DNA of 64,000 bases from Candidatus Bathyarchaeota archaeon (lineage in GTDB: Archaea > Thermoproteota > Bathyarchaeia > 40CM-2-53-6 > RBG-13-38-9). The notes beneath the pieces are model-generated. The model worked only from the letters and a program-made list of their open reading frames with translations. It was not told the DNA's origin and ran no database searches. The position numbers and the translations under genes were made by a program. Of the stretch, positions 4,256 through 39,463 are shown piece after piece. The stretch lies in NCBI GenBank assembly GCA_963807605.1, contig CAWECG010000003.1, positions 992,001 to 1,056,000 of the forward strand, given 5' to 3'. Position 1 is the first letter of the stretch. Each line of letters opens with the position of its first letter.

Positions 4256-4647
4256 TTGGGATCCCCCACTGATGAGGAGACTACTGTAAGTGCTCTTAGA
4301 GAGGGCATCTCAAGATTTGTCCGAGGGCGCGGATGGGAGAGATTTCACAATCCAAAGAATCTTGTCGAGTCTATCTGCATTGAGGCATCTGAACTCCTCG
4401 AGCTCTTCCAGTGGCTGACAACAGCTGAGTCCAAGAACTTGAACAAAGATCCTGACAACCTAGTCTTCTCTCAAGCGAATTGGCTGACGTCCTCATCTAC
4501 TGTTTTGCTCTAGCAAATGCTGTCCAAGTAGATGTGTCGGGCTCAGTCCTCTCCAAGCTCAAAGAGAGCTCAAGAAGATACTCAACATCTAGCTACAAGG
4601 GAAAGGCACCTAGTCGCTGCAAATCGATCAGCAGAAAAATCTATTGA
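4256..4647 (+). pseudogene. MazG-like nucleotide pyrophosphohydrolase with one frameshift near 4468 (possibly an assembly error)
   Basis: WERFHNPKNL...EASELLELFQW in one frame; SELADVLIYCFALANAV...RRYSTSSYKGKA in another frame, stop 4645-4647. Confidence 0.8.
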
Positions 4648-4678
4648 TGTCTGGAATAGTATAAGCTTGAGAGAGATC

Positions 4679-4918
4679 TTGACCCGCCCCAGTCTTCCGG
4701 ATACATGTCCAGGGATCACGAAATTTGTACGACCAACTCCCGAATCGATAGTTTGTCAGAGTTGCGGCAGAAACCTGGAGATATGGAGCGATGAGGATGA
4801 GGTCAAGTGTGACGGCTGCGGAGCTCAGGTATCCAAGGAGAAAGGAGCATCATGTCTCGACTACTGCGAATATGCAAACAAATGTAGAGATATAATCAAC
4901 AAGAGAAAGCTCGGATAG
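4679..4918 (+). CDS. small Cys-rich/zinc-finger protein
   Basis: TTG start; CPG...PTPE..CQSCG..EIWSDE..CDGCG..CLDYCEYANKC. Confidence 0.75.
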   Translation: MTRPSLPDTCPGITKFVRPTPESIVCQSCGRNLEIWSDEDEVKCDGCGAQVSKEKGASCLDYCEYANKCRDIINKRKLG

Positions 4919-4960
4919 GCGATCTTGGCCTAACTCGGTTGGACTCCGTACAGATCAAGC

Positions 4961-5678
4961 CTAAAACCCGCGCGCGTAGAAGGTATCATTTGTATCTCTG
5001 TTCTTTGTAAGGGCGGCTGAATTGCTATAACCCAGTTTCTCCCAGAAACCTAGTTGATCCTCGGTTGTGAATTTGATCTCGTGAATCCACTTGGTACTCT
5101 TATATCCATACTTTTGTGGAACGACCCGCCTTAAGGGCTGGCCACGTTCAGGTTCAAGTTGCTTCTCATCTAACTCACATGCTAACATAACATCCGCGTC
5201 TAGCAATACATCCAGAGGCAGAGAGGTGAAGTAACTGTCCTCACACGTGAATCCAACGAAATGTGCGCTGGATTTCGGTGCACAAAACTCAACGATGTTC
5301 TTGAAAGTCGTTCCACCCCGCAGGTTGTCCAGCTTGCTCCAGCCAGTCACACAGTGAAAATCCGATTGCCGAGTTGTCTTCGGCAGTCTCAGAAAATCAC
5401 TCCAGAATAAACTAAGTGGCTTCTGAACCTCCCCGAGAATTGAGCCTCCAATCTTTCTCCACAAACATTGGGGTTGCGGCGATGCTGAAAACTACGATTT
5501 CTGTAACCTCGCGCTGATTGGGCGGAAGGTGGGAAGGATTAGATGGTGTTCGCTCGCCTTTGAAAGGCTGTCTAAAGAATATTGATCCTACACTCAAGGT
5601 AGCAACCCCTACGGCTATTCCTAGAAGATATTTCAGGAGTCTTCTTCTACTCAACGGTTGTCCGAAGAGTTGAGGCAT
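4961..5678 (-). pseudogene. molybdopterin-dependent oxidoreductase (sulfite oxidase/MsrP-like) with Tat-like signal, frameshifted
   Basis: SRRRLLK plus hydrophobic segment; LPPNQ; DFHCVTGWS; YGYKSTKWI; GFWE. Frameshifts near 5440 and near 5013. Confidence 0.8.
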
Positions 5679-5759: not shown

Positions 5760-8700
5760 TTACTTAATAGATCGTTTACCGGGACGCTTACGCACTATTC
5801 GGCTTTGTGCTCGTTTCTTCTTGATGGCTCTCTTCTGAATTCGGTGCATTCCGATGAAGTAGTCTCTTCCATCGATCAACCATTCCCTCGAGAGCTCAAC
5901 CTTGGGTCTTTTCTGTCCTTTGCCAAGGAAATTCAGATTCTTTGCTCTGACCTCTTCGCAGATGTAGTCTTCCTTCTTCTTCAGCGACTCTAATTCCGCC
6001 TTCCCAGGGGGAACTACGTAAGCACTGACATAAGCATCGACCGGTAGACTCATCTGCCTCCGCATCTCTTGCATGCGTCTTACTATATCCCTTACGAGCC
6101 CTTCTGCCAGAAGTCTCTTTGGCATGGTTGTGTCGACGTATACTCTTCCTTTGCTGAAGGTTCCAGGTATGAAGTTCTCCGCCATCTCCTCTCTGAATGT
6201 AACCATCTCGGAGTCTAACGTAACGGTTCTTTCCTCCACTTTCAAATCGTAAGTTCCCTTCTCTTTGAGCTCTTCAAAGATCTCTCTGCCGTCAAGCCTT
6301 TTTATCGCCTCGGCGATCACATTAGTCTCTCCTTTGAAGGTTGGTCCCAGAGCTTTGTAGTTTGGAGACACCTTCAGTGTCTTAAGCTTCTCTTCTTCTT
6401 CCACCGCAACGAACTCTATCTTCCGAGTATTTGCTTGGGAGTAGATCACCTGTTCAAACTCCTCGGCAGCTCTTTGGACAGTTGGCTCTTCTGTCACGAT
6501 TATGATTTTTGAGATTGGTTGTCTGAGCTTTATCCTAGCAGTCTGCCTCGCGCTTAGAGCTGCGCTTATCAACTCTTTGGTCAGTTCCATATTCTCCTCG
6601 AGTGAAGGTTCGATCCAGTTGATCTTGGGCTCTGGGTATCGGCACATGTGTATGCTCTCAAGGGGTGACGCCTCTGCGGGTTTGATCATTTCTTGGTAGA
6701 TCTTCTCTGTAATGAAGGGTGTGAATGGTGCGCTTAAGAGGAGCCATGTCTTGAGGGCGTGGTAGAGGGTTGAGTATGAGGCAAGTTTGTCAGGGCTCTC
6801 TTTCTCCTGCCAGAACCTTCGCCTTACGAGCTTGATGTACCATCTGCTTAGGTCTTCAACGGCAAATTGGCTAAGGACTCTGGCGGCCTTGTGTATGTTG
6901 AGACTCTCAAGCTCCTTCTGTACGAGGAGTTTCAGACTCTCCGTCTTAGAGACAAGCCACTTATCTTCAGGTCGGAGGTTGCCTTCCCAGACCGGCCATT
7001 CTTCAGGCTCGAATTGATCAAGGTTCATGTAGATGCTTGCGAAGGCGTAGATGTTCCAGACGACCTTAAGATCCTTCATTGTATCCTCGACTGTTGTTGT
7101 CGAGAAGTTGAAGTCTTCCCATACAGTCCGTTGGAGCTCGTAGAGGCGAAGTGCATCTCTACCATACTTCTGAACGATGTCATTTGGTGAGATAAAGTTG
7201 CCTTGGGACTTGCTCATCTTCTGTCCTTCGGTGTTGAATGTGTGGCCGTGCATCAGGACGGCTTTGTAGGGTGAACTGTCGAATGCCACCAGGCCTGCGC
7301 CAAGTTGTGAGTAGAACCAGCCTCTGGTCTGGTCGTGGGCCTCGATTATTAGATCTGCTGGCCACCACTTCTTGAACTCCACCTCAATCCTTGGGTATTG
7401 GAGGGATGCCCATGAGGCGACACCTGAGTCCATCCAGACATCCACTATGTCAGGAACTCGACTCATTGAGCCACCACATTCGCAGTCGAATTTTATTGGG
7501 TCGACATCCTGTCTGTGGAGCTCAATTGGTCCTTGAAGGTTTGAGGCTCTCTGTCTTAGCTCTCTCTCTGAACCGATGACAGTTCTTCTGCCGCAGTTCT
7601 GGCAGATCCAGATTGGCATGGGGGAACCCCAGTATCGCTGTCGTGATATTACCCAGTCCCTTGCCCCAAGCAGCCAATCCTTGAATCTCCTTGTTCCAGC
7701 CCAGTCTGGGGTCCAGCTGATCTTCTCATTCTCTTCGAACAATCTCTGTTTTAAGTCAGTAATCTTGATGAACCACTGTTCAGTGGCCCTGAGTATCAGT
7801 GGGGTCTTGCATCTCCAGCAGTGAGGATATGGATGCTCAATCACTGAAGTCTTCAAGAGTAGGGACTTGGCCTTAAGGTCTTCAACAATCTCTGGGTTAG
7901 CATCAAAGACATATTTCCCAGAGTATTTTCCCGCCTCCTGAGTGAACCTTCCAGTCTGATCGACTGGACTCATCACCGGTAAGTGATTAACTTGGCCTAC
8001 CTCAAAGTCTTCCTCACCGTGTCCAGGCGCGCAATGGACGCATCCAGTGCCTTCCTCCATCGACACATATTCCTTGCTTAGAACGATTGTGTGGATGTTG
8101 TCTTCTCTTGGCTTGGCTTGGATTGGAACCTCATTCCGGAGGGGTGGGCGATACTTCAGGCCTTTTAGCTTATTTCCCTTGAAGATCTCTAAGACTTCTT
8201 CTGGTTGTCCTTCGAACACAGCATGCCTTCTTGCTTCGGCCAAGATGTAGACTTCGTCACCCACCCTGACCCTTGAGTAGTCAGTGTCGGGATTTACCAT
8301 GACTGCGAGGTTTGCAGGAAGCGTCCAAGGTGTCGTCGTCCAGATCAGTATATACTCCTTCTCCTCACCTTCTACAGGAAACTTGACGTAGATGGATTGG
8401 TCTTTGACAGTCCTGTACTCATCTGTCACCTCGTATCCTGCCAAGGCTGTCTCGCAGCGGGGGCACCAATGGACGACCTTCAATCCTTTCTGCAGTAACC
8501 CCTTGCTCTCAGCTCTCTGTATTATCCACCATACAGACTCAATGTACTCATTCTTGTAAGTCAGGTAGGGTCTGTCCCAATCCATCCAGACCCCAAGATC
8601 CTTGAAGACACGTGTCTGAATTTTAGCGTTCTCTTGAGCATAGCATTTACAGAATTCTATGAACCTCTTTATTGTAATGGATTCTTCGATCTCTCTCTTA

Positions 8701-30300: not shown

Positions 30301-30639
30301 TCAGGATGTCAAGTACTGTAGTATCGCTGTAATCTGATCCGGAGTGAGCGTAGTCCCAAATGCTGGCATACCTTTATCGATATTGCCTTTCTCTATTGTA
30401 TCTCTGTTTACATTGCTGGCAGTGAGCGCGGGGGCTTTCCCTCCAACACCCTTTGCACCATGGCACGCTTCACAGTTGACTTTGTACAATGCTGCACCGT
30501 CTGCAGCGACGGTTGGCGTCGTAGACTGAGGCGGTGAGTATTGCGAAGTCGGGGCAGGAGATCTAGAAATATAGTAGACTCCAGCCACAGCAATTATCAC
30601 TATAACAACTGCTATCGCTATTATGGAACGACTTACCAA
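30301..30639 (-). CDS. membrane-anchored monoheme c-type cytochrome
   Basis: N-terminal TM, Pro/Ser/Thr linker, G..LY..NCEACHG, axial Met in MPAF. Confidence 0.88.
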   Translation of the reverse strand: MVSRSIIAIAVVIVIIAVAGVYYISRSPAPTSQYSPPQSTTPTVAADGAALYKVNCEACHGAKGVGGKAPALTASNVNRDTIEKGNIDKGMPAFGTTLTPDQITAILQYLTS

Positions 30640-30894
30640 ACCAAATGCACCTAAATAGAAATTTGTTATTGATTGATTTAAAAACTTTTAAAACATGATA
30701 GGCAGCATCAGACTGTACCTTTCGACAACTAAGACAGATTTATCGGGAGTCACAAACGATTAGGTGAGAGAACTACTGGATTTCAAACGATCTAAACGCC
30801 TTTTGGTCCCACTCAAATTCACTCGTAAAGCTTTTGGAACGTCCATTTCCATCTATGCAATAGACTCTCCAAATCGAGACAACTGGAGTGATCG

Positions 30895-31686
30895 ATGATG
30901 AGAAAGAACTGCATCCAGATGACCTTGATCCAAGTTGACAATTACGGACCCTGGACATTGAGCTTGGGGCACCAACGTGAACCGTATCTCCAAGTACTGC
31001 AATCAGAACTCTACGCTGAACTTCAAAGACTCTTTTCCCTCAAAGCGGGTTTAGTTTTTCTTGGCCGATTTGATAACATGTTAGCAGTGACTAACGGGAT
31101 ATCGGTGAAGGATCATTCAGAGATTCAACAGAGCATATGTCAACTTTTTCCTGTAACAGTCAGCATGGGAATCGGCGCGGGGGAGTACCCAATAGAAGCA
31201 CAACTAAACGCCACTAGAGCCCTACAGAATCGAGGTAGCTCAAGGCACGCTGAACGTATAAACGTATTAGCTGTAGAGCAACCTCTCGACTCAGAAGCAG
31301 ACGATTTCGTTCAAATTGCACACATAGATTTAAACGACGTGACGACGCTTACAGACTCCATCTCAGCATACGACGCCTTCGTTACGATGATCAAGGTCCA
31401 CGAGACTTTGGCGAAAGCATTTCTCCAATCGAGGTCACTTGTCTTCTTCGCAGGAGGAGACAATTTCCTAGTAGTATCGAACGGCCTGACAGAGGATAAA
31501 TATCGGAAGATATTGAAGGAAGTCTCAGGCGAAGTCGGCTTAGAAATGAAAGCAGGAATAGGCATTGGAAGAACAGCCTCAGAAGCACTTGAACTAGCAA
31601 GCCGAGCACTTGACAGAATTAGAGCCAAAAGGAACGAAATGTACACCACACCATTCCCACACACGCTCCTTGAGACTAAGTTATGA
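30895..31686 (+). CDS. gch3: GTP cyclohydrolase IIa (III)
   Basis: IQVDNYGPWT, RFDNM, AHID.ND.T, GGDNF, K.GIG. Confidence 0.93.
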   Translation: MMRKNCIQMTLIQVDNYGPWTLSLGHQREPYLQVLQSELYAELQRLFSLKAGLVFLGRFDNMLAVTNGISVKDHSEIQQSICQLFPVTVSMGIGAGEYPIEAQLNATRALQNRGSSRHAERINVLAVEQPLDSEADDFVQIAHIDLNDVTTLTDSISAYDAFVTMIKVHETLAKAFLQSRSLVFFAGGDNFLVVSNGLTEDKYRKILKEVSGEVGLEMKAGIGIGRTASEALELASRALDRIRAKRNEMYTTPFPHTLLETKL

Positions 31687-32927
31687 AGACTTTGATAGAA
31701 GCACCGTTCCTATTGTCAGGGGACGAGATGAAACTCACCAGACAAGGATATGTCCTCATAGATCACGATACAATTGCTGAAGTAGGAACCGGTTCGCGGC
31801 CTCAAACCGAAAAGACCCTCCGATGCAAGCATTCAATCATTATCCCAGGCCTGATAAATTCACACATCCACCTGGGAGATTCAGCGTTCAAAGACGCCGG
31901 CTCAGGAAAGACTCTAGATGAACTCTTCAAACCGCCTAACGGTTTGAAGCACAAGCTACTGAAGGCCGCCACAAGATCCCTTCTATTGGAAGCGGCAAGA
32001 CACAGTCTGGCAGACATGCTGCGCTCCGGAACTACCACCTTCGCTGACTTTCGAGAAGGCTCCATTGAAGGTGCAAGAATTCTTCTCGAAACATTAAAGG
32101 AACATGATATGAGAGGCATAATCTTCGGCCGAACAGACTACAACTTCAGTATAGAACAACTGAACGACAACAAAGGAACAATTCCAAAAAGCGATCTAAC
32201 AACCTTGCATGAATTACTCGAAATGACTCATGGAATAGCCCCAAGCAGTCCCAATGACGCTACAGACGAAGCCCTGAAACAACTAGCAGAAATAGCCAGA
32301 CAACATCAGAGAATGAAGGTCACTCATGCAGTTGAGAATCCACATTCCGAGAAAATCTCAAGGGAACGGAGCGGACTCACCGAGGTAGAGAGAGCTGTCA
32401 GGTATCTTAACGTTGACATGCTAGTTCATTTAACATATGCTTCACAAGAGGATCTGAACTTAGTAGCTGCAAGAGATATCCCAGTTGCGGTATGCCCGCG
32501 AGCAAATGCCTACCTGTCCCTCAAGCTACCTCCCATAGGAGAAATGTTGGATAGAGGAATAACCGTCTGCATAGGAACAGACAATGTGATGCTCAATCAA
32601 CCGGACATGTTCAGAGAGATGGAATTCACCTTCAAAGCCTACCGAATAGAAAAGACCGCAACCCGGCACCTACGTCCCATAGAAGTTTTACGTATGGCAA
32701 CTATTAATGGAGCAAAAGGACTCAGAATCGAACATAAGACTGGATCCATAGCAGAAGGAAAATCCGCGGATTTGGTGATCATAGACCTCGATAAAAATCT
32801 CAGGGATACCAAAGATCTTCTGACATCTCTGGTACATAGAACGGCAGCAGAGGATATCAGTTCAGTCATCGTGAGAGGTAAGATTGCTTATGACAATCAT
32901 ATGGGAAACTCAAGAGAGAACACCTGA
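31683..32927 (+). CDS. metal-dependent amidohydrolase, deaminase subtype
   Basis: PGLINSHIHLGD, GTT.F.DFREG, HAVE, VH, CPR.N, GTDN. Confidence 0.88.
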   Translation: MKTLIEAPFLLSGDEMKLTRQGYVLIDHDTIAEVGTGSRPQTEKTLRCKHSIIIPGLINSHIHLGDSAFKDAGSGKTLDELFKPPNGLKHKLLKAATRSLLLEAARHSLADMLRSGTTTFADFREGSIEGARILLETLKEHDMRGIIFGRTDYNFSIEQLNDNKGTIPKSDLTTLHELLEMTHGIAPSSPNDATDEALKQLAEIARQHQRMKVTHAVENPHSEKISRERSGLTEVERAVRYLNVDMLVHLTYASQEDLNLVAARDIPVAVCPRANAYLSLKLPPIGEMLDRGITVCIGTDNVMLNQPDMFREMEFTFKAYRIEKTATRHLRPIEVLRMATINGAKGLRIEHKTGSIAEGKSADLVIIDLDKNLRDTKDLLTSLVHRTAAEDISSVIVRGKIAYDNHMGNSRENT

Positions 32928-33591
32928 AAACCTCTACAATAGGCCGTACGTTATCTTGAATGCTGCCATGACGCTGGACGGAAAGATAGCAACCAGATCT
33001 CGTGACTCAGAGATCTCTTCGCAGGAAGACCTGACACGTCTGCATCAGTTGAGAGCTAGCGTGGATGCCATAATTGTGGGAGTAGAAACAGTCTTGGCCG
33101 ACGATCCTCAATTGACACCATACCGCGTGGCAGGAAAGAATCCAATTAGAGTGATTCTGGACAGCGTAGCTCGGACCCCGACGACAGCTAGAGTGTTAAG
33201 ACGGGACTCTGCGCGAACACTCGTTGCCGTCACGGAAAGCGCACCCAAAGAAAGGATCGACGCCTTACTTTCTACCGGAGCCGAAATTATTGTGACAGGA
33301 TCAGGAGAGAGAGCAGATATCTCCTCAGTGATGAACACATTGCGCAAACTTGGAGTGAATAAAGTCTTAGTCGAGGGCGGCGGCAATGTAAACTGGAGTC
33401 TAATTAGGCTTGGACTTGTCGATGAGATACGTGTGTCTGTAGCTCCAGTAATAGTCGGAGGCAAGGATGCTGTCACGCTCGTTGAAGGTGAAGGGATGAT
33501 GAAAGTGAGTGACGGAATCAAACTTCTCCTTCAGCGTATCGAGCAGTACGGCAACAATATCGTACTGACATACAGATCACTTTGGAAATGA
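32884..33591 (+). CDS. arfC: 2,5-diamino-6-ribosylamino-4(3H)-pyrimidinone 5'-phosphate reductase (RibD reductase domain only)
   Basis: RPYV..NAAMTLDGKIA, DDP.L, VEGGG..NWS. Confidence 0.92.
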   Translation: MLMTIIWETQERTPENLYNRPYVILNAAMTLDGKIATRSRDSEISSQEDLTRLHQLRASVDAIIVGVETVLADDPQLTPYRVAGKNPIRVILDSVARTPTTARVLRRDSARTLVAVTESAPKERIDALLSTGAEIIVTGSGERADISSVMNTLRKLGVNKVLVEGGGNVNWSLIRLGLVDEIRVSVAPVIVGGKDAVTLVEGEGMMKVSDGIKLLLQRIEQYGNNIVLTYRSLWK

Positions 33592-33597
33592 CGAATA

Positions 33598-34794
33598 ATG
33601 TCGCAGAGATGCGGTCTCGACTCTACCCTGAAGGAGATCCTACACAGGGCCCTTCTCGACAGCCCCCCAACCAGAGGGGAAGCCTATCAGTTGATCAATG
33701 CGGGAGTTGAGGATCTACCCGCGATTGTATCCTGCGCGTCAGCTATCAGAAACACGAAGAAGGGCCACTTGATAAGCTACTCCAAGAAGGTTTTCATCCC
33801 TCTGACCAATATGTGCAGAAACAAATGTGATTACTGCGGCTTTAGAAGAGGGCCCGAAGATCCGGCATCCAAGATGATGATGCCCGACGAGGTGATGAGA
33901 CTTGCAAGAACAGCCGTTAAGGCTGGATGCAGAGAAGCACTATTCGTTCTAGGAGAAAAGCCTGAGATAGCACATCTCAAAGCAATGAAGAAACTTAGCA
34001 GTCTGGGGTACTCATCGACCGCAGATTACCTCCATGACATATGCAAAATGATCCTGAATGAGACGGTACTGCTGCCGCATAGCAATCTTGGGATTCTTTC
34101 AAGAGAGGAACTAGTAAGTTTGAAGGATGTTAATGCAAGCATGGGTCTAATGCTTGAAAGTTCAAGTGTTCGATTATGCGATAAGGGTGGACCGCATCAA
34201 CACAGCCCTGGAAAGAGGCCAAACCTTAGATTGAAGACCATCGAGGAGGCGGGGAGACTCAAAATACCAATGACAACAGGGATACTGATAGGGATTGGCG
34301 AGACACCTGAAGAACGTATCGACTCACTCTACGACCTCAAGCGTTTACACGACAGATACAATCACATCCAAGAAGTAATCATTCAGAATTTTCGCGCTCA
34401 GACCCAAACACCGATGGAGAACAAGGCCGAACCCGATCTCTTTGACATAGCGAGGACTGTGGCAGTAACACGAATAATCTTTCAAGGCAGAACTAACGTC
34501 CAGGCTCCACCAAACCTGATCCCAGACAACTACCAAATGATACTAGATGCTGGAATAAATGATTGGGGTGGAATCTCCGATGTTACACGTGATCTTGTTA
34601 ATCCTCAATCACCATGGCCAAAAGTCGAGGAACTCAGAAAGGCTACAAATGCCGCAGGTTTCCAACTTAAGATGAGGTTGCCGATTTATCCGGAATACAT
34701 AAAGCAGATGCATGGGTACCTCCCGAAATGCTTGGAGAGTAAAGTAATGTCGCAGGTTGATAGCGAGGGATACGCGCTGGAGGAGAGTATTTGA
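33598..34794 (+). CDS. cofG: FO synthase subunit CofG
   Basis: VFIPLT..CRNKCDYC, EALF..GEKP, ASMGLMLE, H..SP.K, NDWGG.S.VT.D.VNP..PWP. Confidence 0.93.
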   Translation: MSQRCGLDSTLKEILHRALLDSPPTRGEAYQLINAGVEDLPAIVSCASAIRNTKKGHLISYSKKVFIPLTNMCRNKCDYCGFRRGPEDPASKMMMPDEVMRLARTAVKAGCREALFVLGEKPEIAHLKAMKKLSSLGYSSTADYLHDICKMILNETVLLPHSNLGILSREELVSLKDVNASMGLMLESSSVRLCDKGGPHQHSPGKRPNLRLKTIEEAGRLKIPMTTGILIGIGETPEERIDSLYDLKRLHDRYNHIQEVIIQNFRAQTQTPMENKAEPDLFDIARTVAVTRIIFQGRTNVQAPPNLIPDNYQMILDAGINDWGGISDVTRDLVNPQSPWPKVEELRKATNAAGFQLKMRLPIYPEYIKQMHGYLPKCLESKVMSQVDSEGYALEESI

Positions 34795-35966
34795 AAGAAT
34801 CATTAGTGCAAGAGCATTCATCTTTGAGTGGTTTCCTCAGCAAAATCTCCCTCTCGATCGACCCAGTGGTATCGAATATACTCGACAAAGCACTTGATGG
34901 AAAGGAGCTTTCACGGAAAGACGCTATTGAACTCTTCAACACTAGTGGAACAGGTTTTGAGCTGTTGATGTTTGTTGCCAACGAAATCAGGCGAAGAACA
35001 GTTGGGAATGTTGTGACCTATGTGGTCAATCGCAACATAAACTTCACAAATATTTGCATAGCCAAGTGTGGTTTCTGTGCTTTCAGCAGAGAACCGAATG
35101 ATCCTGACGCCTACACTCTGTCTGCAGAGGAGGTGGCTGCAAGAGCTGAAGAGGGTTGGAGAGCCGGAGCAACAGAGGTCTGCATCCAAGGCGGATTAAA
35201 CCCAACTTTTGACGGACATTTATACGCGCAGATCTGTCAGGCCGTCAAAGAAAAGATCCCTATGCTGCACATTCATGCTTTCTCACCCATGGAGATCGTG
35301 TACGGGGCAGAGAAAACAGGCTTGACTATAACCGAACACCTGAAGATGTTAAAGGAGGCTGGGTTGGACAGCATTCCGGGGACAGCGGCAGAGATACTTG
35401 ACGATAACGTAAGGAGAATAATCTGTCCAAGAAAGATAAATGTCCAGACATGGATTGACGTAGTAAAGACAGCCCATAAACTCGGGATACCAACAACCTC
35501 AACGATGATGTACGGTCATGTAGATCAGCCCCAGCAGTGGGTAGAACATATCTCTTTGCTAAGAGATATTCAGAAAGAAACCCATGGTTTTACAGAATTC
35601 ATACCACTAAGTTTCATCCACCCAAACACACCACTATACAAAAATGGGCAGGCCGGACCCGGGGCAACCGGTTCCCAAGACATAAAGGTACACGCCGTAT
35701 CAAGACTTATGCTGAGCGGCTACATAAACAACATCCAGGCTTCATGGGTCAAGTTAGGACCCAAAGTGGCCCAGATGTGCCTAGCAGCTGGTGCCAATGA
35801 CTTGGGCGGAACGCTAATGGAAGAGAACATCTCAAGGACCGCCGGAGCAACCAATGGCCAAATCTTGGATCCGGCGGAGATGATGAGACTCATAAGCGAT
35901 ATGGGGAGAATCCCAGCTCAACGGAACACAACCTACAAAATACTGAAGGTGTCTCAAAGCAAATAG
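34791..35966 (+). CDS. cofH: FO synthase subunit CofH
   Basis: TYVVNRNINFTNIC...C.FC, EVCIQGG, PGTAAEIL, QASWVK, NDLGGTLMEE; adjacent to cofG. Confidence 0.92.
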   Translation: MKESLVQEHSSLSGFLSKISLSIDPVVSNILDKALDGKELSRKDAIELFNTSGTGFELLMFVANEIRRRTVGNVVTYVVNRNINFTNICIAKCGFCAFSREPNDPDAYTLSAEEVAARAEEGWRAGATEVCIQGGLNPTFDGHLYAQICQAVKEKIPMLHIHAFSPMEIVYGAEKTGLTITEHLKMLKEAGLDSIPGTAAEILDDNVRRIICPRKINVQTWIDVVKTAHKLGIPTTSTMMYGHVDQPQQWVEHISLLRDIQKETHGFTEFIPLSFIHPNTPLYKNGQAGPGATGSQDIKVHAVSRLMLSGYINNIQASWVKLGPKVAQMCLAAGANDLGGTLMEENISRTAGATNGQILDPAEMMRLISDMGRIPAQRNTTYKILKVSQSK

Positions 35967-36028: not shown

Positions 36029-36553
36029 TTGATGGCCATGCTTAGAAAGAGGTATAGTCCATCCTCCAGAAAAGCCGCGGTGACAGCGGTTCTCGCCGCA
36101 ACCGCGATCGTCCTATCACCTCTATCCTTTCCGATAGGTCCGACTAGGGTGTATCCTGCCCAACATATGATAAATGGTGTCGGAGGTGTGCTCTTGGGTC
36201 CATGGTACGCAACGCTTGTCGCAGTAGTCGCCGCGATCATACGAAATGCCTTAGGTACTGGCACGATATTCGCTTTTCCCGGGGGAATTCCAGGAGCACT
36301 AATTGTAGGCGTGATCCACAAATATCTCTGGAAGAAGGACTTTGCAGCTCTCACTGAGCCTATCGGAACCACGATCGGCGCGGTTATTAGTGCCTTATTT
36401 GTATCGCCTTTGGCGCTCCAGTTAGGCTTCACTGGATTGACTCTTCCACTGGAAGCCTTCATAGTCGCTTTCCTTGTCAGTAGCGTTCCTGGATCCATTC
36501 TGGGGCTTGCGGTGCTGCTGGTGATGCGAAAGACTCGGAGTCTGATCCCCTAG
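36029..36553 (+). CDS. thiW: ECF thiazole transporter S component ThiW
   Basis: P.QHMIN, LLGPWY, IRN.LGTGT.FAFPG, EPIGT. Confidence 0.9.
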   Translation: MMAMLRKRYSPSSRKAAVTAVLAATAIVLSPLSFPIGPTRVYPAQHMINGVGGVLLGPWYATLVAVVAAIIRNALGTGTIFAFPGGIPGALIVGVIHKYLWKKDFAALTEPIGTTIGAVISALFVSPLALQLGFTGLTLPLEAFIVAFLVSSVPGSILGLAVLLVMRKTRSLIP

Positions 36554-36645
36554 TAAATAAGATTCATAACAAAATACGGTCTCCCAACTACAGATCGGCT
36601 CTCTGACATGAGGTTCTGGTGAATTTCGCGTAAGGAAGTGAAGTT

Positions 36646-37239
36646 ATGCAGTCATTCTCAAAAGTAGAGCCTGGGCTAACGTATCCTTTCTCTTCCGTAG
36701 CTCATAAGAGAACTCTGATTCTGGGTGATCTCTCCTCGGGAAAAACCGTTTTGACAGCTAGGATGCTTGTCGACGCACTAAAATCAGAAGATCTCTGCGA
36801 AATAACGATAATCGATCTTGCTCCCGAAAAGGTCCTGTACAACAGAAAAGCCCTAGGTGGCAGGATTGCAGATGAATTGAGGTTGCCCCTCCGGCTTAGG
36901 GTACTTCAGCCAAGAAAGATCAATACGCCCAGATTCTCAGCCAAGAATAGTAGCGATTTGCTTCGTCAGGTTGAAGAGAATCATGCAATGATCGAAGAGA
37001 TAATCGACCTCTACCTCGGAAAACCAACACCTATACTTTTCGTCAACGATGTCTCTCTTTATTTGCAATCAGGGAAATTCGAAAAGATCTTCAAGCTCAT
37101 TGAAGAAGCAGACACCTTTATTGCCAATGCTTACTACGGAATGTCTCTCAAGGATGACCTCGGGACAGGGATCTCAGCCTTGGAGAGGCAGCTTGTGGAA
37201 GGTGTTGCGAGACAAGTCGATCTTGTGATACACCTCTAA
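36646..37239 (+). CDS. uncharacterised P-loop NTPase-like protein
   Basis: GDLSSGKT; IIDLAP; LFVND.SLYL; NAYYG. Confidence 0.7.
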   Translation: MQSFSKVEPGLTYPFSSVAHKRTLILGDLSSGKTVLTARMLVDALKSEDLCEITIIDLAPEKVLYNRKALGGRIADELRLPLRLRVLQPRKINTPRFSAKNSSDLLRQVEENHAMIEEIIDLYLGKPTPILFVNDVSLYLQSGKFEKIFKLIEEADTFIANAYYGMSLKDDLGTGISALERQLVEGVARQVDLVIHL

Positions 37240-37256
37240 ATTCCTGCCACGCACGT

Positions 37257-37460
37257 TCATGAAGCGTTTAGCATCAAGCATGACGTCCGTAACAGAGTTA
37301 TTACGCCAGTTCCGAAAGCAATTGCAATTAGAGTCATCACCAGTCTCTCAACTGCTGAGACGGGCAACATGAAGATGAACAGTACAGGTATACCAGGAAG
37401 AGTCATCGAAGTTAAGATTGAACTTACGACCTCTAACGGAATGAACGATCCCAATCCCAA
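37257..37460 (-). pseudogene. C-terminal fragment of a membrane protein (ECF S-component-like)
   Basis: Hydrophobic LFIFMLPVSAVERLVMTLIAIAFG; 5' part absent. Confidence 0.45.
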
Positions 37461-38060
37461 GATGAAAAGAGTGCTACAGCGGGAACGTATTCAGGATATT
37501 TCATCGCCAACTCCTTATTCTATACACTCGGCGTTCTTTTTGTCCTGGGTACAGGGGTTTCCGATAGTGTACGTGCCATAACCACCCTTGCCTACGGGAT
37601 CCCAGCTCTGCTGCTGATCCTCGTTGACGAGACAGACAATGGTTTTGCAGACATCAATTGTGCATCGGTTTCGATACAGAACATATGGCCCAAGATCTCA
37701 CAAAAGCTACTCGTAACCTTGATTGGGCTGGCCGGAATGCTAGTTGCCTTATTCCTTCCTATTGAGCAGTACACCTCATTCCTTTTGTTGATAGGATCTC
37801 TATTCATACCACTATTCGGAGTAGTTGTCACCGATTATGTCTTCGTCAAGAGAAGAAGATACTCGACTGAAGACCTATACAGGAACAGCGGGAACTACTG
37901 GTATCATAGGGGAGTGAGTCGTCTGGCTATCGGCGCATGGTTCATAGAAGCTCTCTCTTACCACGTCATAGTAACCTATTCATCTTGGCTCGGTGCCTCA
38001 GTTCCAAGCTTCATAATGGCAGCTTTCACATATTGGATAGCTATGGAGCTGAAGAAATGA
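37461..38060 (+). pseudogene. cytX: 5'-truncated CytX-like hydroxymethylpyrimidine/purine-cytosine permease
   Basis: Startless open frame DEKSATAGTYSGYFIANSLFYTLG...LILVDETDNGFADI...FLLLIGSLFIPLFGVVVTDY; overlaps the thiDN start. Confidence 0.7.
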
Positions 38061-39463
38061 CAACCTCTTATGAAGGTCTTCTAGGGATCGGCGCAATCCC
38101 TAGAGCATTAACTATAGCCGGTTCTGACTCAGGAGGCGGTGCCGGGATCCAAGCTGACCTAAAGACTTTCGCAGCCCTAGGGATCCATGGCATGAGCGCC
38201 TTAACCTCAATAACTGCTCAGAATACACTTGGAGTCGATGCTGTCCAAGACCTACCACCTGAGATCGTAAGGGCCCAGATAGACTCTGTCGCACGTGATA
38301 TTGGTATCGATGCAGCGAAGACGGGAATGCTTCATACCTCCAAGATAATCAATGCTGTAGCTGAAGAGATCAACCGATACGGGCTCCCAACCGTAGTGGA
38401 TCCTGTTATGGTCGCCAAGAGTGGGGCGATCCTCCTTGAACCTGATGCAATAGAGTTGATGAAGAGCAAACTTGTCCCACTTGCACTCGTCATAACCCCA
38501 AACGCCCCAGAGGCCGAAGCCCTCAGTGGACTAAAAGTCAGATCCTGTGATGAAGCGGTGGCTGCGGCTAAGAAGATCGCAAATCTTGGCCCCAGAGCGG
38601 TTGTTGTAAAGGGTGGCCATATTCAAGGTGAAAGCGTTGTTGACCTACTATACATCGATGGAGCCATAAAGAGATTCGAAGCCGAACGCTTCAATTCAGA
38701 TACGACGCATGGTACAGGGTGCAGTTTCTCCGCAGCTATCACGGCGGAGATAGCGAAGGGCAAAGGAATCGTTGAAGCGGTTGCTTCAGCGCAGAGGGTT
38801 GTCAGCGATGCAATAAGATTTGGCCTCAAGCTCGGCAAGGGTTACGGTCCCGTAAACCCTCTTGCTGCTCTCTATAGGGAGGCTGAGAGGTACCGGGTGA
38901 TAAGGAATGTCTCAGAGGCCTTAGAAGCGCTTCAAATGGATACCAACCTTCACTATCTCATACCAGAATCTCAGACAAACCTAGCCATGGCCCTTCCAAA
39001 TGCGACCGGACCAGACGATGTTGCGGCTGTGCCAGGTCGAATAGTAAGAATAGGTAAACGAACACACGCATCGGCATGTCCACAATTTGGAGTATCCAAG
39101 CATGTCGGCTCAACCATCGTTACGGCTCATAAGTACGATCCGATGGTTAGAGCTGCAATGAACATCAGATTCTCAGAGGAGATACTGCAAATCTGTGAAA
39201 GGCTGAAACTGACTATATCTTCTTACGATAGAGCGATAGAGCCTCCGGAAGTCAAATTCACAGAAGGAAGGACAACCGCTTGGGGTGCTGAACAGGCGAT
39301 TAAACAGATCGGTCGGGTGCCAGACATAATCTTTCACAAAGGCGACTGGGGTAAAGAACCAATGATAACCATCGTGGGTCGAACCGCAGTCGAAGTCGTA
39401 AAGATAGCTCAGAATATCGCCGCGGAATACGCCAGAACCCAGCCTAAGAACGAGTCCAAATGA
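38057..39463 (+). CDS. thiD: HMP/HMP-P kinase fused to ThiN thiamine-phosphate synthase (ThiDN)
   Basis: [29 protein letters not shown]; C-terminal IPE.QTN...GRI...GKEPM. Confidence 0.93.

What the first reader, a model, noticed from the sequence alone, without database searches (positions are those of the whole stretch)
31683..32927. Deaminase-type amidohydrolase in gch3-arfC-cofG-cofH: candidate pyrimidine deaminase of flavin/F420 synthesis
Seen: overlaps gch3 (ATGA-type 4-bp overlap) and arfC; has HxH, HxxE (HAVE) and GTD motifs; arfC is reductase-only; no creatininase-family ArfB in the cluster. Knowledge: the archaeal route needs Gch3, deformylase ArfB, reductase ArfC, then deamination and dephosphorylation to give the CofH substrate; to my knowledge the archaeal deaminase is not firmly assigned, and HxxE marks the nucleobase deaminases of this superfamily. 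Inference: this protein deaminates 2,5-diamino-6-ribitylamino-pyrimidinone 5'-phosphate, or substitutes for ArfB.
Basis: partly seen in the sequence, partly recalled or inferred. Interest (0 to 1): 0.7.

Follow-up and report, generated by a model that had tools for sequence, protein, structure and literature searches.

The report
Predicted archaeal Fo/riboflavin pyrimidine deaminase
The gene between gch3 and arfC in this soil Bathyarchaeon very probably encodes the never-assayed deaminase that makes the pyrimidine precursor of coenzyme F420 (and, in other archaea, of vitamin B2), but its protein family (MJ0699, 'PyrD') was already proposed for that step in 2010 and 2017, so this is a well-supported rediscovery.

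Summary
In detail: a 414-aa amidohydrolase with an intact deaminase-type metal site sits in a tightly packed gch3–AMH–arfC–cofG–cofH operon. It belongs to NCBIfam NF005552 (349 bits; cut-off 294) and forms one clade (100/100) with MJ0699 and MTH_994. MJ0699 is the untested 'PyrD' candidate deaminase of Osterman/Rodionov (2010, 2017); an ortholog carries the SEED name 'Pyrimidine deaminase archaeal predicted'. The idea is therefore not new, and this scan reached the same verdict on other genomes.

New supporting evidence here:
- The order looks like a riboflavin auxotroph (RibH/RibC family in 1 of 41 genomes; none of RibB/H/C/E in this one). The gene tracks CofH, so it acts upstream of the Fo branch point.
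- Sister genera replace Gch3 by a RibA–reductase fusion, which makes no formyl intermediate, yet keep AMH–cofG–cofH.
- Other lineages carry ArfB in the same operon.

The last two argue against the 'ArfB substitute' option. No CDA-type deaminase and no other cog0402 paralog was found in this genome. I found no published assay. Confidence in the deaminase role is about 0.8.

The parts
30640..30894 (+). Intergenic region upstream of gch3; presumed promoter of the operon. It contains an AT-rich palindrome at 30674-30695.
   Evidence: 255-bp gap before gch3; palindrome TGATTTAAAA/TTTTAAAACA. Its function was not tested.
30895..31686 (+). gch3/arfA, GTP cyclohydrolase III (GTP to the formylamino-pyrimidine nucleotide)
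   Evidence: PF05165 1.4e-83. The stop overlaps the next ATG.
31683..32927 (+). The finding: a cog0402-type metal-dependent deaminase of the NF005552/PRK07213 family, an ortholog of MJ0699 ('PyrD' candidate). Predicted 2,5-diamino-6-ribitylamino-4(3H)-pyrimidinone 5'-phosphate deaminase.
32890..33591 (+). arfC, archaeal pyrimidine nucleotide reductase (RibD_C domain only). An alternative TTG start lies at 32884.
   Evidence: TIGR01508 224 bits against a cut-off of 186; start context.
33598..34794 (+). cofG, Fo synthase radical-SAM subunit
   Evidence: TIGR03550 447.7 bits.
34791..35966 (+). cofH, 5-amino-6-(D-ribitylamino)uracil--tyrosine 4-hydroxyphenyl transferase. It consumes the product of the branch.
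   Evidence: TIGR03551 541 bits; 4-nt overlap with cofG.

Best explanation
The protein is a mononuclear-metal amidohydrolase of the cog0402 deaminase type. It most likely hydrolyses the 2-amino group of 2,5-diamino-6-ribitylamino-4(3H)-pyrimidinone 5'-phosphate, the ArfC product, to give 5-amino-6-ribitylamino-uracil 5'-phosphate. After dephosphorylation, that compound is the CofH substrate.

Inferred mechanism, by analogy with guanine, isocytosine and MTA deaminases:
- H61, H63, H215 and D300 hold the metal-bound water.
- E218 of the HxxE motif, together with H249, shuttles protons.
- Hydroxide attacks C2 and ammonia leaves.

In this organism the five-gene operon gch3–AMH–arfC–cofG–cofH, with an ArfB encoded elsewhere, forms a dedicated GTP-to-Fo line. 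The riboflavin branch (RibB, RibH, riboflavin synthase) was not found.

Shown: family membership, operon structure, phyletic pattern and fold. Inferred: substrate, order of reactions and the metal.
For: 1. Family. NF005552 scores 349 bits against a cut-off of 294. The protein is 33% identical (4e-64) to MJ0699 = UniRef100_Q58110. It forms a single clade (100/100) with MJ0699, MTH_994 and the rib-operon copies, separate from DadD-like paralogs.

2. Gene context in 80 loci.
- ribE/ribC–ribB–ribH–gch3–AMH–arfC(–arfB) occurs in Nitrososphaerota, Bathyarchaeia and Asgard (Frey/Jord) archaea.
- AMH–(arfC)–cofG–cofH occurs in Bathyarchaeia.
- Divergent copies lie directly beside ribH in four crenarchaeal families.

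3. Phyletic pattern.
- 101 of 101 Methanobacteriota genomes have exactly one copy over the cut-off.
- Among 41 relatives, AMH and CofH co-occur in 8 (one of them a partial AMH at a contig edge). Each occurs alone in one genome, both cases with a contig end or low completeness. Neither is found in 31.

4. No rival deaminase. The genome has no PF00383 hit. Its other amidohydrolases are PyrC, urease and FwdA.

5. Position in the pathway. The gene is retained although RibB/RibH/RibC/RibE are not found, and CofD and CofE are present. The step therefore lies upstream of 5-amino-6-ribitylamino-uracil.

6. Fold. The AF2 model has pLDDT 92.5. The nearest solved structures are AtzA, MTA/adenosine deaminases, isocytosine deaminase Vcz, TrzN and guanine deaminases. 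All of these remove a substituent from an N-heteroaromatic ring. Isocytosine is the 2-amino-4-oxopyrimidine core of the proposed substrate.
Against: - No member of the family has a published assay or knockout that I could find.
- In Methanobacteriaceae the gene sits beside carAB, usp and CBS genes with no rib link.
- One family of B2-prototrophic Thermoproteota, of which one genome (G170) was tested, showed no hit even at 1e-15. The family is therefore not the universal archaeal solution.
- Substrate-binding residues could not be mapped, because no model coordinates or ligand complex were available.
- Relatives are not independent samples, so the co-occurrence counts overstate the statistics.
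Confidence: 0.8

Rival explanations
1. It is a 5'-deoxyadenosine/MTA/SAH deaminase (DadD-like). It would remove the inhibitory 5'-deoxyadenosine produced by the two radical-SAM enzymes CofG and CofH encoded next to it.
For: MTA/adenosine deaminases are among the nearest solved structures. NF005557 (5'-deoxyadenosine deaminase) gives 154 bits. The genome has no other cog0402 paralog that could do this job. CofG and CofH are radical-SAM enzymes.
Against: - 154 bits is far below the NF005557 cut-off of 522.
- Methanocaldococcus carries both an MJ0699 ortholog (578 bits) and a separate DadD-like paralog (87-93 bits). The two fall in different clades.
- In Nitrososphaerota and Asgard archaea the gene lies in rib operons with no radical-SAM gene.
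Confidence: 0.06
2. It substitutes for ArfB: it would hydrolyse the formamide of the Gch3 product (deformylase).
For: No creatininase-family gene lies in the operon. Amidohydrolases can cleave amides.
Against: - Two ArfB-like genes exist elsewhere in this genome, 35-41% identical to operon-encoded ArfBs.
- ArfB lies in the same operon as this family in L020, L024, L027, L037, L057 and L058. It is fused to ArfC in L034.
- Sister genera lack Gch3 and use a RibA–reductase fusion, which yields no formyl intermediate, yet keep AMH–cofG–cofH.
- The HxxE deaminase signature is invariant.
Confidence: 0.03
3. It deaminates a related substrate: the ribosyl form before reduction (the bacterial order of steps), the dephosphorylated ribityl compound, or another 2-amino-4-oxo pterin/pyrimidine of the pathway.
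For: Context shows only that the step lies between GTP and the CofH substrate. In some relatives ArfC is unlinked or fused to RibA. The nearest folds include isocytosine, guanine and 8-oxoguanine deaminases.
Against: In M. jannaschii, reduction was reported to precede deamination (Graupner et al. 2002, as cited in PMC5397151). The conserved gene order AMH–arfC with overlapping reading frames fits consecutive steps, but does not fix their order.
Confidence: 0.1

Closest known systems
'PyrD' candidate archaeal pyrimidine deaminase = MJ0699 (UniProt Q58110) / HVO_2483 / MTH_994; NCBIfam NF005552 (PRK07213 'chlorohydrolase'); SEED role 'Pyrimidine deaminase archaeal predicted'
   Same: Same family. 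The window protein scores over the NF005552 cut-off, is 33% identical to MJ0699 and lies in the same clade. It shows the same clustering with arfA/arfC that prompted the 2010/2017 prediction (PMC5397151).
   Different: Here the operon is fused to cofG–cofH in a lineage without the riboflavin branch, so the enzyme serves Fo/F420 only. The family is still unassayed.
Bacterial RibD N-terminal domain and fungal Rib2 deaminase (cytidine-deaminase fold, PF00383)
   Same: Same predicted reaction type: hydrolytic removal of the 2-amino group of the diaminopyrimidinone intermediate. Rib2 acts on the same ribityl substrate.
   Different: Unrelated fold (CDA versus TIM-barrel amidohydrolase). No PF00383 match was found in this genome. 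If confirmed, this is a non-orthologous displacement.
cog0402 deaminases with solved structures: isocytosine deaminase Vcz/8-oxoguanine deaminase (7ww2), guanine deaminases (2i9u, 6ohb, 2uz9), MTA/SAH deaminases (4f0r, 1p1m), AtzA/TrzN
   Same: Same fold (TMq 0.79-0.87) and the same HxH / HxxE / H / D metal-and-proton-shuttle set. Isocytosine and guanine share the 2-amino-4-oxopyrimidine moiety of the proposed substrate.
   Different: At most 24% identity. Scores are far below every equivalog cut-off, for example guanine deaminase 112 against 375. The family has its own invariant motifs: HxHxGDS, PPxGLKH, DFREG, CPRAN and GTDNVMxNxPD.
ArfB (MJ0116, creatininase family PF02633) formamide hydrolase
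   Same: Another hydrolase of the same pathway segment, often in the same operon.
   Different: A different family and a different reaction. It co-occurs with the finding rather than replacing it.

Membership tests
Amidohydrolase superfamily, cog0402-type deaminase subgroup | (beta/alpha)8 barrel with HxH (strand 1), H plus HxxE glutamate (strand 5), H (strand 6) and D (strand 8) | tested here: met
   PF01979 1e-53. H61, H63, H215, E218, H249 and D300 are invariant. AF2 model pLDDT 92.5, with cog0402 enzymes as the top Foldseek hits.
NF005552 / PRK07213 (MJ0699, MTH_994; 'PyrD' candidate) | Score over NCBI's curated cut-off (294 bits) | tested here: met
   349.4 bits.
NF005552 / PRK07213 (MJ0699, MTH_994; 'PyrD' candidate) | Orthology: same clade as MJ0699 and separate from DadD-like paralogs | tested here: met
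   Clade support 100/100. The identity of MJ0699 was checked by exact look-up.
NF005552 / PRK07213 (MJ0699, MTH_994; 'PyrD' candidate) | Clustering and co-occurrence with riboflavin/Fo pyrimidine-branch genes | tested here: met
NF005552 / PRK07213 (MJ0699, MTH_994; 'PyrD' candidate) | Deaminase activity on 2,5-diamino-6-ribitylamino-pyrimidinone 5'-phosphate | not testable with these tools
   No published assay found.
ArfB (creatininase family) | PF02633 domain | tested here: not met
   P0001 has no PF02633 hit. The genome's two PF02633 genes are elsewhere.
RibD/Rib2 CDA-type deaminase | PF00383 zinc-deaminase domain | tested here: not met
   Not in P0001 and not found anywhere in the genome.
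DadD / MTA-SAH deaminase; guanine deaminase | Score over the equivalog cut-offs (NF005557 522; NF012037 779; TIGR02967 375) | tested here: not met
   154.6, 109.4 and 112.2 bits.

The most novel reading that the evidence does not exclude
A whole order of Bathyarchaeia has apparently lost riboflavin synthesis but keeps a self-contained GTP-to-Fo operon. In that operon this amidohydrolase is the only unassigned catalytic gene. Together with the natural Gch3/ArfB versus RibA-fusion swap, this narrows its job to the deamination step. It also makes this protein, or MJ0699, a ready candidate for the first assay of the non-CDA archaeal pyrimidine deaminase. Confirmation would close the last unassigned chemical conversion, other than the phosphatase, of archaeal flavin/deazaflavin precursor synthesis.
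Probability: 0.75. Interest if true: 0.5.

Novelty: new member of a known kind. Interest (0 to 1): 0.4.

Why it matters
The deamination step of the archaeal riboflavin/F420 precursor pathway has a candidate gene but no published biochemical proof that I could find. Confirmation would establish a non-orthologous replacement of the bacterial and fungal CDA-type deaminase by a TIM-barrel amidohydrolase. It would also correct the widespread 'chlorohydrolase / amidohydrolase family protein' annotations. Finally, it would complete the enzyme set needed to rebuild the archaeal route to Fo/F420 in heterologous hosts. The Fo-only operon in a riboflavin-auxotrophic lineage is a clean natural argument for where the enzyme acts.

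Tried and rejected
- ArfB substitution was rejected.
- A DadD-like role was considered because of the radical-SAM neighbours. It was rejected on HMM scores, the tree and the rib-only operons.
- I checked the genes downstream of cofH for a candidate phosphatase. They are ThiW, an unassigned P-loop protein and ThiDN, which form a thiamine cluster and are not conserved beyond close relatives.
- I looked for an RbkR-type operator upstream of gch3 and found only one AT-rich palindrome, which is not informative.
- A strict NF005552 threshold (1e-60) misses the divergent crenarchaeal copies. Phylum-wide absence at that threshold is therefore not evidence against the role.
- The RibA–RibD_C–PTPS cluster of family f2 has a nearby amidohydrolase, but an ERCC4 gene on the other strand separates them and it looks unrelated.

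Full report
**What is there**

The ORF at 31683-32927 (+) encodes 414 aa. It is the second gene of five tightly packed genes on the + strand:
- gch3/arfA, 30895-31686 (PF05165, 1.4e-83)
- the amidohydrolase ('AMH')
- arfC, 32890-33591 (TIGR01508, 224 bits; RibD_C domain only)
- cofG, 33598-34794 (TIGR03550, 448 bits)
- cofH, 34791-35966 (TIGR03551, 541 bits)

The gch3 stop and the AMH start share ATGA. AMH overlaps arfC by 38 nt, and cofG overlaps cofH by 4 nt. All are invariant in an alignment of 18 homologs sharing 38-67% identity.

**Which family**

Pfam gives Amidohydro_1 (1e-53). NCBIfam puts the protein over the curated cut-off of one equivalog only, NF005552/PRK07213 'chlorohydrolase' (349 bits; cut-off 294). 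5'-deoxyadenosine deaminase, MTA/SAH deaminase, guanine deaminase and the rest score 90-155 bits against cut-offs of 375-780. An AlphaFold2 model is confident (pLDDT 92.5). Its nearest solved structures are cog0402 enzymes at no more than 24% identity: AtzA, MTA/adenosine deaminases, isocytosine deaminase Vcz, TrzN and guanine deaminases. All of them displace a substituent on an N-heteroaromatic ring with a metal-activated water.

**Is it the published candidate?**

Rodionova et al. 2017 (PMC5397151) state that RibD-type deaminase orthologs are apparently missing in Archaea. They also state that a candidate, 'PyrD', had been proposed from clustering and co-occurrence (Osterman, Overbeek & Rodionov 2010) but remained untested. 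Pfeiffer et al. 2021 (PMC8305020) name that candidate as HVO_2483/MJ0699 (Q58110) and list the step as an open issue.

I checked the link myself in four steps:
- I reached Methanocaldococcus genomes through a tRNA pattern.
- NF005552 hits them at 486-598 bits.
- An exact look-up of the 1.7-Mb genome's protein returned UniRef100_Q58110, 'Uncharacterized protein MJ0699'.
- The M. lauensis ortholog is deposited as 'Pyrimidine deaminase archaeal predicted'.

The window protein is 33% identical to MJ0699 (4e-64). In a maximum-likelihood tree, the window protein, MJ0699, MTH_994 and the rib-operon copies from Nitrososphaerota, Asgard archaea and Bathyarchaeia form one clade (100/100). That clade is separate from the DadD-like paralogs. 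The finding is therefore a member of the known, predicted but unassayed family. Searches up to late 2026, including a 2026 review of the pathway, turned up no assay. Earlier agents of this scan reached the same verdict on other genomes.

**Gene context elsewhere**

In 80 loci from species-representative genomes, the genes most often found beside AMH are:
- ArfC (42 loci)
- Gch3 (38)
- RibH (33)
- RibB (32)
- RibE (23)

The recurring order is ribE/ribC–ribB–ribH–gch3–AMH–arfC in Nitrososphaerota, Bathyarchaeia, Frey- and Jordarchaeia. In Bathyarchaeia it is AMH–(arfC)–cofG–cofH. In six loci a creatininase-family ArfB follows arfC in the same operon. In L034, ArfC and ArfB are fused. In those operons every assigned step from GTP to riboflavin is present, and AMH is the only gene without an assigned reaction. 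Methanobacteriaceae keep the gene beside carAB–usp–CBS with no rib link. Even so, 101 of 101 sampled genomes of that phylum have exactly one copy over the cut-off. In four crenarchaeal families, divergent copies (120-193 bits) lie directly beside ribH. One tested B2-prototroph genome (G170) had none.

**What this genome adds**

The assembly is 2.65 Mb in 5 contigs and 94% complete. It has no RibB and no RibH/RibC family member by HMM. By tblastn with rib-operon proteins from other lineages (Bathyarchaeota, Nitrososphaerota, Asgard and other archaea) it has no RibB, RibH, RibC or RibE, while the Gch3 and ArfC controls hit. It does have a CTP-dependent riboflavin kinase, CofD and CofE. The DMRL-synthase family was found in only 1 of 41 genomes of the order. 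The lineage therefore looks like a riboflavin auxotroph that keeps the pyrimidine branch only to make Fo/F420.

| Pattern among the 41 genomes | Genomes |
|---|---|
| AMH and CofH both present (one AMH partial at a contig edge, G012) | 8 |
| AMH only (G008; contig ends 5 nt past arfC) | 1 |
| CofH only (G014; 69% complete) | 1 |
| Neither | 31 |

AMH must therefore act upstream of 5-amino-6-ribitylamino-uracil, the branch point.

Only G000, G001, G008 and G018 have Gch3. Two other genera of the family differ. In genus g3, G003 and G009 show RibA hits (partial in G009) and G003 encodes the RibA–RibD_C fusion; G015 has neither Gch3 nor RibA. G007 (genus g7) also has the fusion, which I verified there (462 aa). 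The g3 genomes keep AMH–cofG–cofH; in G007 the genes are dispersed. GTP cyclohydrolase II releases formate itself, so these genomes need no deformylase but still need a deaminase.

This genome also has two ArfB-like genes, no CDA-type deaminase and no other cog0402 paralog. Its other amidohydrolases are PyrC, urease alpha and FwdA. Together, these points remove the 'ArfB substitute' reading and leave deamination as the only unfilled hydrolytic step.

**Mechanism**

This part is inferred. By homology with cog0402 deaminases:
- H61, H63, H215 and D300 bind one divalent metal and the attacking water.
- E218 (HxxE) and H249 relay protons.
- Hydroxide adds to C2 of the 2-amino-4-oxopyrimidine ring and ammonia leaves.

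The same ring system is the substrate of isocytosine and guanine deaminases. The family-specific invariant residues K89, R124/E125 (DFREG), R150, R237 and R386 are candidates for binding the ribityl phosphate. I could not map them in 3D. Reduction before deamination is taken from the M. jannaschii literature cited in PMC5397151 and was not tested here.

**Rivals**

A DadD-like role, clearing 5'-deoxyadenosine from CofG/CofH, is the most reasonable alternative in this particular context. It fails on HMM scores, on the tree, and on the rib operons that have no radical-SAM genes. Deamination of the ribosyl or dephosphorylated form cannot be excluded.

**Verdict**

The main interpretation is supported and the ArfB alternative is rejected. 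The gene is a new member of a known, predicted family, so this is a rediscovery with two useful extra arguments: the Fo-only auxotroph context and the RibA-fusion swap. Confidence in the deaminase role is about 0.8. Interest is moderate (0.4), because the step is still unproven experimentally but the idea is 16 years old.

Noticed in passing
L161:1423-2811 (G007); also G003 C314:4389-5654 and G010 C20:1227-2495: RibA (GTP cyclohydrolase II) fused to a RibD_C pyrimidine reductase (462-480 aa). It occurs in Bathyarchaeial genera that lack Gch3. I do not recall this fusion being described, but I did not search the literature for it.
   Followed up: partly
L034:7224-8663: ArfC–ArfB fusion protein (RibD_C + creatininase domains, 479 aa) directly after AMH in a Bathyarchaeota rib operon.
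   Followed up: partly
Whole genome G000 and 40 relatives: RibB, RibH, RibC and RibE were not found in this genome. The RibH/RibC family was found in only 1 of 41 genomes of the order, while Fo/F420 genes are present in a subset. These appear to be F420 producers that are probable riboflavin auxotrophs. I found no paper on this.
   Followed up: partly
L162 (G000:C1:553000-564000): 4630-5367(-), 5891-7060(+), 7205-7783(-): A second locus with a creatininase-family gene, a TrpD-like phosphoribosyltransferase (193 bits, just under the cut-off) and a truncated RibD_C paralog (145 bits, under the cut-off). Its function is unclear; it may hold the operon's missing ArfB.
   Followed up: partly
window 36029-39463: Downstream of cofH lie ThiW (thiamine-precursor ECF S-component), a 197-aa P-loop-like protein with no family, a fragment of a cytosine/purine permease, and ThiDN. 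ThiW and the P-loop gene also follow cofH in L019 and L022.
   Followed up: partly
window 30301-30639 (-): Small membrane-anchored c-type cytochrome (PF13442, 1.4e-14), divergent from the operon.
   Followed up: no
L172:5584-8008 (G025, family f2 of the order): A cluster of RibA, a glyoxalase-family gene, a divergent RibD_C-like gene and PTPS (COG0720), in genomes with no CofH, RibH or AMH. It may be a different GTP-derived (pterin-type) pathway.
   Followed up: partly
L028-L081 (Methanobacteriaceae loci): Conserved order carA–carB–AMH–(serS)–usp–CBS. The candidate deaminase is never beside rib genes there, and its linkage to carbamoyl-phosphate synthetase is unexplained.
   Followed up: no
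G170 (Thermoproteota family f22): A B2 prototroph with RibH and RibC but no NF005552-like hit even at 1e-15. The family is all RibH-positive (10 of 10) and none has a hit at 1e-60. This lineage may use yet another deaminase.
   Followed up: no
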